DNA of 64,000 bases from Escherichia coli (lineage in GTDB: Bacteria > Pseudomonadota > Gammaproteobacteria > Enterobacterales > Enterobacteriaceae). Of the stretch, positions 9,569 to 25,239 are shown in pieces. Position 1 is the first letter of the stretch; each line of letters begins with the position of its first letter. The position numbers and the translations under genes were made by a program. The notes below the pieces were generated by a model, which searched no databases, was not told the DNA's origin, and was given only the letters and a program-made list of their open reading frames with translations. Where the stretch lies: the NCBI RefSeq assembly GCF_013122565.1, contig NZ_CP053258.1. The stretch is one strand, 5' to 3'.

Positions 9569-11452
9569 ATGGATCCACGGCTACTGGAATACTACAACCG
9601 CGAACTGAGCTATCTGCGGGAAACGGGAGCCGAATTTGCCGCCCGTCATCCCAAAGTCGCCGCCCGGCTGGGCATGCAGGGAACGGATATTGCCGATCCG
9701 TATGTGGAGCGGATGGTCGAAGCCTTCAGCTTCCTGACCGCCCGCACGCAGCTAAAAATTGACGCTGAATTCCCTCGTTTCACCCAGCGCCTGCTGGAAG
9801 TGGTCAGCCCCAATTACGTCACACCCACGCCCTCAATGAGCGTGGCGCAGTTGCATCCCGATACGGAAGAAGGCGATCTGGCAAAAGGATTTACCGTCCC
9901 GCGCGACACGGCCTTTTTCTCCGCCATTCCGGAAGGCGAAAGCACTGCCTGCCAGTTTCGCAGCAGCCAGGATGTAACGCTGTGGCCGCTCGCCATCGAA
10001 GAGGCGCGACTGACCGCCGCGCCGCCGGATATGCCTGCCCTGCACCGCTACCTGCCGGCCAACATTCACGTCGCCGGGGCGCTGCGTATTACCCTGCGCA
10101 CCTTTGGTGAACTAACGTTCAGTCAGCTTGCCGGACTGGACAGGCTGCCGTTTTATCTCTGCGGCGAGGAGCGTACGGCCTCACACCTGTTCGAACTTCT
10201 ACATACCAGCGCCATCGCGACCCTGGCTGGCATTCCGGGACATTTTGACGGCGCGTTGGATGTGAATCTGCAACAGCCCGTTATGTACGAAGGCCTGGAG
10301 CCGGATCAGGGGCTGCTGCCGCTGGCGTGGAACGTGTTTCACGGTCATAACCTGCTGCATGAATATTTTGCCTGTCCGGAACGCTTCTATTTTTTCACCC
10401 CGACAGGCCTGTCTGCCGGATTACAGAAAATTGACGGTGGCGTGGCGGAGATTGTTATCCTGCTGAACCGCCTGCCGCCGGACTGGCTGATCCACCAGAC
10501 AAATACGGCACAGTTCAGCCTGTTCTGTACCCCGGTTATCAACCTGTTTCCCCGCGTCACCGCCCGGATCGATGTCACGCACAGCACGACGGAACAGCAT
10601 CTGGTGGTGGACAGAACCCATCCGCTGGATTATGAGGTGTTCTCGGTCCAGGAAGTGGAAGGGCTGGAAACCGACACCACACGGAAGATGGCCTTTCGCC
10701 CGCTCTACCACACCCGCAATAACGATGAAGGCAATCACGGGCGTTATTTTTCCCTGCGCCGGGAGCCGCGCCGCTTATCAGAAAACGCCCGCCGTTACGG
10801 TACCCGTACTCCCTATACGGGATCAGAAGTGTTCCTGTCGCTGGTTGACCAGTATGAAGCGCCGTACCCGGAAAATCTGCGCCACATCACCATCACGGCC
10901 ATGATCACTAACCGCGATCTGCCCTGTCTTATTGCCCGCAATGGCCGGGACGATCTAACCGTGGATGCGGCCATCCCGGTGGCGGGCGTAGGGCTTATCC
11001 GCCCGCCACGCTCGCCGCAGCCCCCGCTGGCTGAACGTGAGATGGCATGGCGGTTGATCCGCCAGTTATCTTTTAATTATCTGCCGCTGGCCGATCTGGA
11101 TCACCGTACCGGCGGCCAGGCGTTGCGAGATCTGCTGAACCTGTTTATTCCTGCTCATGACAGTCCGCAATCGCGCCAGGTGCGCAGCCTGATTGGTTGT
11201 AAAACGACCCCGGTCACCCGCCGTCTGCCCGGTTCCGGACTACTGGTCTATGGGCGTGGCGTCAGTTGTGAACTGACGGTGGATGAAGAAGGTTTTTCCG
11301 GCATCAGTCCGTATCTGTTCGGCCTGGTGCTGGAACACTATATCGCCCGCCATGTTTCCATTAATACCTTCTCGCAGATGACGCTGCACAGCATGCAGCG
11401 TGGCAAAATTATGACCTGGCCTGTCAGGGCGGGACAGCGGGGAAGCGTATGA
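9569..11452 (+). CDS. tssF: T6SS baseplate protein TssF (ImpG)
   Basis: 627 aa; recognisable TssF sequence; stop overlaps tssG start (ATGA). Confidence 0.92.
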   Translation: MDPRLLEYYNRELSYLRETGAEFAARHPKVAARLGMQGTDIADPYVERMVEAFSFLTARTQLKIDAEFPRFTQRLLEVVSPNYVTPTPSMSVAQLHPDTEEGDLAKGFTVPRDTAFFSAIPEGESTACQFRSSQDVTLWPLAIEEARLTAAPPDMPALHRYLPANIHVAGALRITLRTFGELTFSQLAGLDRLPFYLCGEERTASHLFELLHTSAIATLAGIPGHFDGALDVNLQQPVMYEGLEPDQGLLPLAWNVFHGHNLLHEYFACPERFYFFTPTGLSAGLQKIDGGVAEIVILLNRLPPDWLIHQTNTAQFSLFCTPVINLFPRVTARIDVTHSTTEQHLVVDRTHPLDYEVFSVQEVEGLETDTTRKMAFRPLYHTRNNDEGNHGRYFSLRREPRRLSENARRYGTRTPYTGSEVFLSLVDQYEAPYPENLRHITITAMITNRDLPCLIARNGRDDLTVDAAIPVAGVGLIRPPRSPQPPLAEREMAWRLIRQLSFNYLPLADLDHRTGGQALRDLLNLFIPAHDSPQSRQVRSLIGCKTTPVTRRLPGSGLLVYGRGVSCELTVDEEGFSGISPYLFGLVLEHYIARHVSINTFSQMTLHSMQRGKIMTWPVRAGQRGSV

Positions 11453-13630: not shown

Positions 13631-13707
13631 TGGCGGAACGGACGGGACTCGAACCCGCGACCCCCTGCGTGACAGGCAGGTATTCTAACCGACTGAACTA
13701 CCGCTCC
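13631..13707 (-). tRNA. aspV: tRNA-Asp (GTC)
   Basis: Reverse complement matches the E. coli tRNA-Asp sequence including encoded CCA. Confidence 0.97.
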
Positions 13708-21692: not shown

Positions 21693-21854
21693 AATATGCC
21701 TCTTTTAATGCTATTTTCGTTAACTGAGGTGATTATGGGCTTCAGACTGTTGCGGAAAAAGAGCGTAAAACGCAGAGGATTTTTGCGATTCTGGCAATAA
21801 TAGATATCCAGACGAAAAAAAACCTCGAGCATTAACTCGAGGCTTCTTAATAAG

Positions 21855-21931
21855 TGGCGGAACGGACGGGACTCGAACCCGCGACCCCCTGCGTGACAGG
21901 CAGGTATTCTAACCGACTGAACTACCGCTCC
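21855..21931 (-). tRNA. aspU: tRNA-Asp (GTC), distal tRNA of rrnH operon
   Basis: Identical 77-nt tRNA-Asp sequence as at 13631-13707; downstream of 5S rRNA. Confidence 0.97.
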
Positions 21932-21974
21932 ACCGAATTCTTTTACAACCACCGGTTTTATGACCGGCTTACTG

Positions 21975-22122
21975 CTTAATTTGATGCCTGGCAGTTTATG
22001 AATCACTTCGTGATTCACCCTTCGGGCCGTTGCTTCGCAACGTTCAAAAGCTTTCGCTTTTGTCCTACTCTCTTATCGAGTAGTGAACTGCCTTAAAGGT
22101 CAGTGCCATTCTTCGTAATTTG
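21975..22122. repeat. Extra segment between 5S rRNA and aspU carrying a duplicated 5S 3'-terminal sequence and two perfect hairpins
   Basis: CTTAATTTGATGCCTGGCAGTT at 21975-21996 recurs with the same core at 22115-22135 (5S 3' end); palindromes TGAATCACTTCGTGATTCA (21999-22017) and CGTTGCTTCGCAACG (22028-22042). Confidence 0.5.
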
Positions 22123-22242
22123 ATGCCTGGCAGTTCCCTACTCTCGCATGGGGAGACCCCACACTACCATCGGCGCTACGGCGTTTCACTTCTGAGTTCG
22201 GCATGGGGTCAGGTGGGACCACCGCGCTAAGGCCGCCAGGCA
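22123..22242 (-). rRNA. rrfH: 5S ribosomal RNA
   Basis: 120-nt reverse-complement match to E. coli 5S rRNA. Confidence 0.97.
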
Positions 22243-22335
22243 AATTCTGTTTCATCAGACCGCTTCTGCGTTCTGATTTAATCTGTATCAGGCTGAAAAT
22301 CTTCTCTCAATCCGCCAAAACATCTTCGGCGTTGT

Positions 22336-25239
<2,904 letters not shown>

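What the first reader, a model, noticed from the sequence alone, without database searches (positions are those of the whole stretch)
21932..22122. About 135 bp of extra sequence between 5S rRNA and aspU with a duplicated 5S 3' end and two perfect hairpins
The 5S-to-tRNA-Asp spacer here is 191 bp. My recollection is that it is only about 50 bp in K-12, but I cannot verify that figure here. The extra segment starts with a second copy of the 5S 3'-terminal sequence and flanking spacer (CTTAATTTGATGCCTGGCAGTT at 21975-21996, identical core at 22115-22135) and contains two perfect palindromes with TTC loops (21999-22017 and 22028-22042). It also holds a TGTCCTACTCTC stretch resembling the 5S region TTCCCTACTCTC. 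This looks like a degenerate 5S remnant or recombination scar within the operon tail, possibly affecting 3' processing or termination before aspU.
Basis: partly seen in the sequence, partly recalled or inferred. Interest (0 to 1): 0.4.

Follow-up and report, generated by a model that had tools for sequence, protein, structure and literature searches.

The report
tRNA-linked repeat in rrnH spacer
The extra 139 bases between the 5S rRNA gene and tRNA-Asp are a strain-variable copy of a known structured repeat family (tRNA-linked repeats, TLRs); it is real and conserved, but it is a new member of a known kind and not a new kind of element.

Summary
The operon lies on the minus strand. The 5S-to-tRNA-Asp spacer is 191 nt, against 52 nt in K-12 rrnH and rrnC. 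The extra 139 nt are bounded by a perfect 20-nt direct repeat: the last 13 nt of 5S plus 7 nt of trailer.

The segment is not just a decayed 5S copy. It belongs to the tRNA-linked repeat (TLR) family (Egan & Landy 1978; Rudd 1999). That family includes the tyrT RtT repeats and the rrnA/B/D sRNAs RrA/B/F (Stenum 2021). It shows the family hallmark, a 3' end that copies the 3' end of the upstream stable-RNA gene. It also has the family's four-hairpin core, which shows strong covariation.

Unlike RrA/B/F it has no T1 terminator in front, sits upstream of a tRNA, and has GAA(A) loops instead of GGA loops (1 GGA versus 5).

About 11% of complete E. coli genomes carry it at rrnH and 7 genomes carry it at rrnC. 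Near-identical copies sit after 5S in Siccibacter, Pseudocitrobacter, Superficieibacter and Phytobacter.

Most likely it is co-transcribed and cut out at the duplicated 5S 3'-end (RNase E) sites as a roughly 139-nt RNA. That step is inferred. Its function is unknown.

The parts
22123..22242 (-). Mature 5S rRNA (rrfH), 120 nt. It carries U13 where all seven K-12 5S genes have G13.
   Evidence: Rfam RF00001 at 93.2 bits; exact boundaries from string match to the K-12 5S.
22116..22135 (-). Direct repeat copy 1, AACTGCCAGGCATCAAATTA: the last 13 nt of 5S plus 7 nt of trailer. It includes the position 3 nt past the 5S end where RNase E is reported to cut pre-5S.
   Evidence: RNase E site as cited in PMC8144298.
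21977..22115 (-). The 139 nt that are absent from K-12 rrnH and rrnC. This is the tRNA-linked repeat (TLR) including its terminal repeat copy.
   Evidence: Alignment with K-12 rrnH/rrnC. Full-length match in 573-600 of 5426 E. coli genomes.
21981..22119 (-). Predicted excised RNA of about 139 nt, running from 3 nt after the 5S 3' end to 3 nt after the repeat copy. Inferred, not shown.
   Evidence: By analogy with the mapped ends of RrB (PMC8144298); coordinates.
22078..22092 (-). Inverted copy of the 5S 3' segment: GGCAGTTCaCTACTC matches the reverse complement of GAGTAGgGAACTGCC at 14 of 15 positions. Its first 7 nt (22086-22092) form the 5' arm of the closing helix.
   Evidence: local alignment; cognate score 13 against at most 7 for non-cognate hosts. 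(closing helix).
22065..22083 (-). Hairpin A: CTACTC / GATAAGA loop / GAGTAG. The 3' strand is the 5S-derived GAGAGTAGG.
22045..22062 (-). Hairpin B of the core: CAAAAGC / GAAA / GCTTTTG.
   Evidence: helix 1: all 9 pairs show double changes across the family.
22028..22042 (-). Hairpin C of the core: CGTTGC / GAA / GCAACG.
22017..22027 (-). Hairpin D of the core: (G)CCC / GAA / GGG(U).
21999..22017 (-). Hairpin E of the core: UGAAUCAC / GAA / GUGAUUCA.
   Evidence: 3 pairs with compensatory changes among 8 close relatives; 7 of 8 pairs with double changes family-wide.
21977..21996 (-). Direct repeat copy 2, the TLR hallmark: a copy of the 5S 3' end plus trailer. Positions 21990-21996 form the 3' arm of the closing helix.
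21932..21983 (-). tRNA-Asp 5' leader of 52 nt, identical in sequence to the whole K-12 rrfH-aspU spacer.
21855..21931 (-). tRNA-Asp(GTC), aspU.
21815..21845 (-). Operon terminator after aspU: a GC-rich hairpin followed by T8. It is the only terminator-like site in 21700-22350.

Best explanation
The extra 139 nt are a member of the tRNA-linked repeat (TLR) family, sitting in the rrnH operon between 5S rRNA and tRNA-Asp. TLRs are structured modules that follow stable-RNA genes and end in a copy of that gene's 3' end. This one has four layers. First, an inverted copy of the 5S 3' segment. Second, a direct copy of the same segment. Third, a conserved four-hairpin core of about 64 nt inserted into the direct copy after GAGAGUAGG. 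Fourth, the terminal 5S 3'-end copy plus 7 nt of trailer. The RNA folds into a closed multi-branch structure: a 7-bp closing helix and five hairpins.

Shown: the anatomy, the family membership, the conservation, the covariation and the population distribution.

Inferred: no terminator precedes the element and tRNA-Asp lies downstream, so it is transcribed with every full-length rrnH transcript. The 5S 3' end and its trailer are duplicated exactly, so the nuclease that cuts 3 nt past 5S (RNase E) would cut at both copies. That would leave 5S maturation and the tRNA-Asp leader exactly as in K-12 and release a roughly 139-nt RNA. The same repeats, together with gene conversion among rrn operons, account for the presence/absence polymorphism. 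The function of the released RNA is unknown. With a single GGA motif it is unlikely to bind CsrA as RrB does.
For: Anatomy and K-12 comparison.

Family hallmark: PMC8144298 states that 18-19 bp at the 3' end of every TLR equals the 3' end of the upstream tRNA or rRNA gene. Here the repeat is 20 nt. The hallmark was re-derived independently: in 46 of 49 core copies lying within 130 nt downstream of a stable-RNA gene, an exact 11-22-nt copy of that gene's 3' end follows the core. Hosts were tRNA-Tyr, Arg, Lys, Pro, Ser and 5S.

Homology: blastn gives 83% over the 3' 74 nt to the K-12 rrnA/B/D inter-terminator elements. The Rfam RtT model matches full length at 29.8 bits, E 5.5e-4. A covariance model built without any sequence of the window's type hits 21999-22062(-) at 57.3 bits, E 5e-11, and this is the only hit in 64 kb.

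Structure: fold z = -5.6. A consensus of 8 close relatives gives the same six helices. On 84 distinct core sequences, 95.3% of cells pair, 20 of 26 pairs show double changes, 0 of 500 shuffles reach this, and slid controls pair at 53% or less.

Constraint: the TLR body is 92.7% identical between the window and Siccibacter, while the flanks are 55% and 69% identical. It is 98.2% identical to Pseudocitrobacter.

No terminator in the spacer.

Processing analogy: RrB's ends were mapped 3 nt after the 5S end and 3 nt after the repeat.

Population: the long form is at rrnH in 573-600 of 5426 genomes and at rrnC in 7. The nearest flank relative, VE-T9 (99.5% identical), has the short form, while E24377A (98.7%) has the long form.
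Against: No expression or 3'/5'-end data exist for this element, so the excised 139-nt RNA is an inference from a paralogue that has a different 5' context (the T1 hairpin). The Rfam RtT score is below that family's gathering threshold (29.8 against 45). The covariation alignment was fitted to the model's structure, and the sequences are related and partly repeated within genomes, so the shuffle control overstates significance; the slid-partner control is the fairer one and is still clear. An alternative local hairpin (22087-22104) competes with the closing helix in the MFE fold of the isolated spacer. About 89% of E. coli lack the element, so it is dispensable.
Confidence: 0.82

Rival explanations
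1. A degenerate 5S pseudogene or recombination scar: the leftover of a second 5S gene, as in rrnD, with no identity of its own.
For: A 13-nt copy of the 5S 3' end, the GAGAGTAGG block and an inverted 15-nt 5S segment are present. rrnD does carry two 5S genes.
Against: No 5S covariance-model match in the spacer at E<=10. The central 64 nt match a core shared with repeats that follow tRNA genes and with free-standing repeats. The element is more conserved between genera than its flanks, the opposite of a decaying pseudogene. The 5S-derived parts are a family feature: tRNA-linked members carry the equivalent parts of their own tRNA.
Confidence: 0.05
2. A small mobile element, MITE-like or recombinase-mobilised. 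The four-hairpin core inserts into the 3' part of stable-RNA genes. The 20-nt direct repeat is a target duplication, and the E. coli polymorphism reflects recent insertion or excision.
For: The presence/absence boundaries fall exactly at the direct repeat. The same core occurs in many copies and tandem arrays away from stable-RNA genes in Alcanivorax, Pseudomonas, Salinicola, Stenotrophomonas, Pectobacterium and Brenneria. The core sits at an equivalent place in different hosts: the T-loop of the tRNA copy, and after G107 of the 5S copy. Distribution in E. coli is not congruent with flank similarity.
Against: No transposase or recombinase association was tested or seen. A 20-nt repeat plus an inverted host copy is not a known transposition footprint. 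The polymorphism is explained more simply by recombination between the repeats or by gene conversion among rrn operons: the long form also appears at rrnC in 7 genomes, several of which also have it at rrnH. E. coli alleles differ by several SNPs, which argues for age and not for recent insertion.
Confidence: 0.08
3. A CsrA/Hfq-binding regulatory sRNA equivalent to RrA/B/F, a fourth 'RrH', produced in proportion to rRNA synthesis.
For: It is homologous to rrA/B/F and 5S-linked. RrB binds Hfq and CsrA in vitro (PMC8144298). With no T1 terminator in front, it would be made stoichiometrically with rRNA.
Against: CsrA binding by RrB depends on GGA motifs in loops and single-stranded regions. The window element has 1 GGA against 5, and its loops are GAAA or GAA. 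The 19 tRNA-linked TLRs, which it resembles in this respect, scored <0.01 for CsrA binding in that paper. Even RrA/B/F deletion gave only modest phenotypes.
Confidence: 0.05

Closest known systems
tRNA-linked repeats (TLRs) of E. coli (Egan & Landy 1978; Rudd 1999: 22 copies at ten K-12 loci; reviewed in Stenum et al. 2021, PMC8144298)
   Same: It lies immediately downstream of a stable-RNA gene in the same operon. Its 3' end repeats the 3' end of that gene. It has the shared hairpin core CGUUGC...GCAACG-GCCCGAAGGG followed by a variable hairpin. Many tRNA-linked members also have no terminator in front.
   Different: This locus, the rrnH 5S-aspU spacer, has no TLR in K-12, so it is not among the 22 listed copies. 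It is present in only about 11% of complete E. coli genomes.
rrA / rrB / rrF (RrA, B, F sRNAs) between terminators T1 and T2 of rrnA, rrnB and rrnD
   Same: 5S-linked TLRs. The 3' 74 nt are about 83% identical, with the same hairpin order and the same terminal AACTGCCAGGCATCAAATTAAGCAG.
   Different: RrA/B/F follow the T1 terminator and are made only by read-through; this element has no T1 and precedes a tRNA. RrB has CGGGA and AGGAC loops (5 GGA motifs); this one has GAAA and GAA loops (1 GGA). This element keeps the complete 5' half (inverted 5S copy, closing helix, hairpin A), which is truncated in rrB. The body is 70.7% identical overall.
RtT RNA (Rfam RF00391), the 178-bp repeats distal to tyrT-tyrV
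   Same: A full-length alignment to the model. The same architecture: a 5' arm complementary to the terminal copy of the host 3' end, internal hairpins, then CCCGAAGGG.
   Different: The host is tRNA-Tyr, so the arms differ. The score of 29.8 bits is below the gathering score of 45. RtT units are tandem and overlap the tpr ORF; this element is single and has no conserved ORF.
5S-linked TLRs of the same sub-type in other Enterobacteriaceae: Siccibacter colletis (5S-TLR-tRNA-Asp), Pseudocitrobacter faecalis and Superficieibacter electus (5S-TLR-tRNA-Thr), Phytobacter massiliensis and Siccibacter (5S-TLR-terminator)
   Same: 93-98% identical over the 109-nt body, with the same GAA(A) loops, no T1, and the same layout as in the window.
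   Different: The downstream partner varies (tRNA-Asp, tRNA-Thr or a terminator). A few compensatory changes occur in hairpin E.

Membership tests
tRNA-linked repeat (TLR) family | Lies in a tRNA or rRNA operon, immediately downstream of a stable-RNA gene | tested here: met
   It starts directly after the 5S 3' end (22123) within rrnH.
tRNA-linked repeat (TLR) family | The 3' end carries about 18-19 bp identical to the 3' end of the upstream tRNA/rRNA gene (PMC8144298) | tested here: met
   A 20-nt exact repeat, 13 nt of mature 5S plus 7 nt of trailer, at 21977-21996 and 22116-22135. The rule held in 46 of 49 other copies examined.
tRNA-linked repeat (TLR) family | Sequence and structure homology to recognised TLRs | tested here: met
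   83% over 74 nt to K-12 rrA/B/F. Own covariance model, built without this sub-type, scores 57.3 bits, E 5e-11. Core covariation.
Rfam RF00391 RtT RNA | Score at or above the curated gathering threshold (45 bits) | tested here: not met
   29.8 bits, E 5.5e-4, full-length alignment. The K-12 rrA/B/F regions do not reach E<1 either. The Rfam model covers the tRNA-Tyr-type members.
RrA/B/F sRNAs (Stenum 2021) | Located between dual terminators T1 and T2 and made by T1 read-through | tested here: not met
   No terminator-like site in 21932-22122. tRNA-Asp follows instead of T2.
RrA/B/F sRNAs (Stenum 2021) | Multiple GGA motifs (five in RrB) in loops and single-stranded regions, needed for CsrA binding | tested here: not met
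   One GGA in the 139 nt, against five in RrB. The loops are GAAA, GAA, GAA and GAA.
RrA/B/F sRNAs (Stenum 2021) | Binding to Hfq and CsrA; defined processed species | not testable with these tools
   Needs northern blot, RACE and EMSA.
5S rRNA gene or pseudogene | Match to the 5S covariance model (RF00001) over a substantial part | tested here: not met
   No RF00001 match inside the spacer at E<=10. Only 13-nt, 9-nt and inverted 15-nt 5S-derived blocks are present.
Intrinsic terminator or attenuator | GC-rich hairpin followed by a U run | tested here: not met
   the only site in 21700-22350 is the hairpin after aspU (21815-21845). None of the five hairpins is followed by a T run.
Rfam RF02902 AaHKsRNA22 (Aggregatibacter sRNA 22) | Score at or above the gathering threshold (39.8 bits) | tested here: not met
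   24.6 bits, E 0.012. The alignment shows the same hairpin order, which suggests a related module in Pasteurellaceae. Not followed further.

The most novel reading that the evidence does not exclude
TLRs, including this one, may be footprints of a small mobile four-hairpin element. That element is also scattered in many free copies and tandem arrays across Gammaproteobacteria. On this reading it targets the 3' part of stable-RNA genes and generates an inverted plus a direct duplication of its target. The rrnH presence/absence polymorphism in E. coli would then be a live example of its gain or loss. Alternatively, the released ~139-nt RNA, made one-for-one with rRNA in B1-type strains (O26, O111, O104:H4, ETEC), may have a growth-rate-coupled regulatory role distinct from CsrA titration.
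Probability: 0.12. Interest if true: 0.7.

Novelty: new member of a known kind. Interest (0 to 1): 0.35.

Why it matters
TLRs were described in 1978 and still have no established function. Only the three K-12 rRNA-linked copies have been studied experimentally, and those are made only by terminator read-through.

The rrnH copy is a natural variant that must be transcribed with every rrnH transcript. It lacks the GGA motifs and is present or absent among otherwise closely related E. coli, including major pathogen lineages. That gives ready-made near-isogenic pairs for asking whether a TLR affects 5S or tRNA processing, or fitness.

For annotation, it explains a recurrent unannotated 139-bp block in about 11% of E. 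coli genomes.

Two wider observations made on the way may bear on how the family arises, but they were only partly followed up. TLRs contain an inverted as well as a direct copy of the host 3' segment. Their core is also a free-standing, multi-copy repeat in other Gammaproteobacteria.

Tried and rejected
1. Rfam at gathering thresholds finds nothing in the spacer. Only the permissive scan showed the sub-threshold RtT and AaHKsRNA22 matches.

2. The K-12 rrA/B/F regions do not match RtT at E<1, so Rfam alone could not link the 5S-type elements to RtT. I built my own model for that.

3. Coding potential. A 14-codon ORF (ATGGCACTG...TAG, minus strand) has no Shine-Dalgarno spacing, and its start region is not conserved in Siccibacter or Rahnella. 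The 32-aa antisense ORF at 21998-22096 and the 116-aa ORF running through the tRNA are mechanical. Rejected without protein searches.

4. Terminator or promoter function: none found in the spacer.

5. Artefact or misassembly: rejected, because the element is in hundreds of complete genomes and in several genera.

6. MAFFT alignment of mixed sub-types put the shorter GAA-type hairpins out of register, so it was not used for pair counts.

7. Three literature searches were wasted on homonyms (RtT/Rett, TyrT, RRB).

It therefore gives examples, not a census, and cannot show whether E. albertii, E. fergusonii or Salmonella carry the element at rrnH.

Full report
**1. What is there**

The window carries a complete rrnH-type operon on the minus strand: 16S, tRNA-Ile, tRNA-Ala, 23S, 5S, tRNA-Asp. 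It is followed by dkgB-yafC-yafD, as in E. coli.

- Mature 5S occupies 22123-22242 and tRNA-Asp(GTC) occupies 21855-21931.
- In K-12 MG1655 the rrfH-aspU and rrfC-aspT spacers are both 52 nt.
- The window's last 52 spacer bases are identical to the K-12 spacer.
- The difference is one block of 139 nt (21977-22115).
- That block is bounded by a perfect 20-nt direct repeat, AACTGCCAGGCATCAAATTA (RNA sense): the last 13 nt of 5S plus 7 nt of trailer.
- As RNA the spacer folds far better than shuffled controls (z = -5.6).

**2. What it is**

A permissive Rfam scan gave a full-length but sub-threshold match to RtT RNA, RF00391 (29.8 bits, E 5.5e-4). RtT is the repeat distal to tyrT.

Comparison with the seven K-12 rrn distal regions showed that the 3' two-thirds of the block is about 83% identical to the segment between terminators T1 and T2 of rrnA, rrnB and rrnD. 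The two variable hairpins are completely different in sequence but sit in the same place.

The literature search identified this family as the tRNA-linked repeats (TLRs):

- Egan & Landy 1978 first described them.
- Rudd 1999 listed 22 copies at ten K-12 loci.
- Stenum et al. 2021 (PMC8144298) showed that the rrnA/B/D copies give the sRNAs RrA, RrB and RrF.
- That paper states the hallmark: the last 18-19 bp of each TLR equal the 3' end of the upstream tRNA or rRNA.
- Neither its text nor its held supplement mentions rrnH, aspU or the window's hairpin sequences.

**3. Independent tests of membership**

One scan of species-representative genomes used the core motif CGTYGC-N3-5-GCRACGRCCCGRAGGG.

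In Enterobacterales, and also in Gilliamella, Thioalkalivibrio and Marinobacterium, the core lies 38-120 nt downstream of tRNA-Tyr, Arg, Lys, Pro, Ser or 5S genes. In 46 of 49 such cases an exact 11-22-nt copy of that particular gene's 3' end follows the core.

5S-linked copies of the window's own sub-type occur in several genera:

| Genus | Layout |
|---|---|
| Siccibacter | 5S-TLR-tRNA-Asp (the same layout as the window), and 5S-TLR-terminator |
| Pseudocitrobacter | 5S-TLR-tRNA-Thr |
| Superficieibacter | 5S-TLR-tRNA-Thr |
| Phytobacter | 5S-TLR-terminator |
| Rahnella | 5S, then a T1-like hairpin, then the TLR |

A covariance model was built only from rrB-type and free-standing copies, with the window's sub-type left out. 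It hits the window once, at 21999-22062(-), with 57.3 bits and E 5e-11.

On 84 distinct core sequences:

- 95.3% of cells form standard pairs.
- 20 of 26 pairs show changes on both sides.
- No shuffle out of 500 reaches these values.
- Sliding the partners drops pairing to 39-53%.

The alignment is model-fitted and the sequences are related, so these numbers are generous. The contrast with the slid controls is still large.

Among eight close relatives of the full element, RNAalifold returns a 7-bp closing helix and hairpins A-E, with compensatory changes in three pairs of hairpin E.

**4. Anatomy**

Reading the RNA from 5' to 3':

1. After the 5S end and CAAAUUA comes a short leader.
2. Next is GGCAGUUCaCUACUC, which is the reverse complement of 5S nt ~100-114 (14 of 15).
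3. A loop follows.
4. Then GAGAGUAGG, a direct copy of 5S sequence.
5. Then the ~64-nt core: hairpins B, C, D and E, with GAAA, GAA, GAA and GAA loops.
6. Finally AACUGCCAGGCAU-CAAAUUA.

The element is therefore an inverted plus a direct copy of the 5S 3' segment, with the core inserted into the direct copy.

tRNA-linked members are built the same way from their own host. The inverted copy matches the T-arm and acceptor 3' strand, and the core sits in the T-loop between TTCGA and ATCC. Cognate host scores exceed every non-cognate score in 34 of 50 cases.

In rrA/B/F the 5' half is truncated and replaced by T1. That probably explains why those elements miss the RtT model while the window's element does not.

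**5. How it most likely works**

Shown:

- The spacer has no terminator-like site.
- tRNA-Asp and the operon terminator lie downstream.
- The junctions 5S/CAAAUUA and CAAAUUA/AGCAG...tRNA-Asp are both preserved.

Published for the paralogue: the RrB 5' end maps 3 nt after the 5S 3' end, the known RNase E site. Its 3' end maps 3 nt after the repeat. The authors propose that RNase E recognises the repeat.

Inferred:

- The element is transcribed with every full-length rrnH transcript.
- It is excised at both repeat copies as a roughly 139-nt RNA (22119 to 21981).
- 5S and tRNA-Asp maturation are unchanged.

CsrA binding by RrB depends on GGA motifs. The window's element has one against five, and its loops are GAA(A), so a CsrA-sponge role is unlikely.

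The body is 92.7% identical to Siccibacter's, while the flanking leader and tRNA leader are 55% and 69% identical. This argues for constraint on the element itself. What the constraint is remains unknown.

**6. Population picture**

- The TLR-specific 5' half is present in 573 of 5426 complete E. coli genomes.
- With flanks, 600 genomes cover at least 80% of a 561-nt query.
- Carriers include E24377A, B7A, HUSEC2011 (O104:H4), and O26, O111 and O145:H28 strains.
- No carrier is identical to the window's allele; the best match is 98.8-99.3%.
- Seven genomes also carry it at rrnC, between 5S and aspT-trpT. Several of those also have it at rrnH.
- The genome closest to the window in the dkgB-yafD flank, VE-T9 (99.5%), has the short spacer.
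- E24377A (98.7% in the flank) has the long one.
- Both long-form genomes examined share a 5S U13 variant. It is absent from VE-T9 and from all seven K-12 5S genes (n = 2 only).
- In short-form rrnH and rrnC, the 12 nt after 5S (CAAATTAAGCAG) match the sequence after the TLR's terminal repeat in rrA/rrB. They do not match the sequence after the genuine 5S there.

Together these points favour an old element that is lost or replaced by recombination between the repeats, or by gene conversion among rrn operons. They argue against recent insertion. This is an inference, because the genome scan was truncated and no tree was built.

**7. Verdict**

The interpretation as a 5S remnant or scar is only partly right.

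The element is a new, strain-variable member of the known TLR family. It differs from the studied RrA/B/F in context (no T1, upstream of a tRNA), in completeness (intact 5' half) and in loops (no GGA motifs).

It is of moderate interest as a natural experiment on a family that has had no known function for decades. It is not a new kind of system.

Noticed in passing
L036:6830-7052, L047:5907-6131, L025:1951-2241, L011:10706-10776, L060:6685-6756, L043:976-1048 and many others (Alcanivorax sp. 24: L108-L124): The same four-hairpin core (~72 nt: AAAAAnnnn-CGGGA-nnnnTTTTT, CGYCGC..GCGACG, GCCCGAAGGG, then a GC-rich hairpin with a CAGGGATG or CATGGACG loop) occurs away from any tRNA or 5S gene. 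Copies are single or in tandem arrays of period ~74-76 nt, in Pseudomonas, Stutzerimonas, Alcanivorax/Alloalcanivorax (at least 9-17 loci per genome), Salinicola, Halomonas, Marinobacter, Stenotrophomonas, Pectobacterium and Brenneria. They score 60-91 bits with model R1, and no Rfam family reaches threshold on the five loci tested. Their loops carry GGA motifs like rrB. I found no description of them in the searchable literature.
   Followed up: partly
tRNA-linked copies in L014, L017, L022, L039, L127 etc.; window 22078-22092: Besides the known terminal direct copy, TLRs contain an inverted copy of the host gene's 3' segment. The conserved core is inserted at a fixed point of the direct copy: the T-loop TTCGA^ATCC for tRNAs, and after GAGAGUAGG for 5S. 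This palindromic build was not mentioned in the passages of the one paper I could read, and it may bear on how TLRs arise.
   Followed up: partly
E. coli genomes H81-H87 (e.g. NZ_AP022215.1 4744887-4745269): Seven complete genomes carry the same TLR at rrnC, between 5S and aspT-trpT; several of them also have it at rrnH. Two of the 583 TLR places are on plasmids. This looks like gene conversion between rrn operons.
   Followed up: partly
window 22230 (5S position 13): The window's rrfH has U13 where all seven K-12 5S genes and the short-spacer strain VE-T9 have G13. E24377A, which also has the long spacer, shares U13. The variant may be linked to the TLR, but only two genomes were examined.
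   Followed up: partly
L042:14524-14594 (Brenneria roseae): A core copy lies about 27 nt upstream of the 5' end of a 5S gene, instead of downstream of one. What lies further upstream was not examined.
   Followed up: no
window 11235-11328 (+): ARAGORN calls a 94-nt 'tRNA-His(GTG)' here, about 2.3 kb from the second tRNA-Asp (aspV-like, 13631-13707, minus strand). Rfam's tRNA model does not report it at the gathering threshold. It is either a false positive or a tRNA-like fragment near a known island integration site.
   Followed up: no
window 22087-22104 (-): The two SNPs that separate the window's allele from E24377A's (C->U and A->G in ACUGACCUUUAAGGCAGU) both keep pairing (C-G to U-G, U-A to U-G) in a local leader hairpin. 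That hairpin competes with the closing helix.
   Followed up: no
window 21979-22108 (-) versus Rfam RF02902: There is a sub-threshold match (24.6 bits) to Aggregatibacter sRNA 22 with the same order of hairpins. This suggests that TLR-like modules are expressed as sRNAs in Pasteurellaceae too.
   Followed up: no
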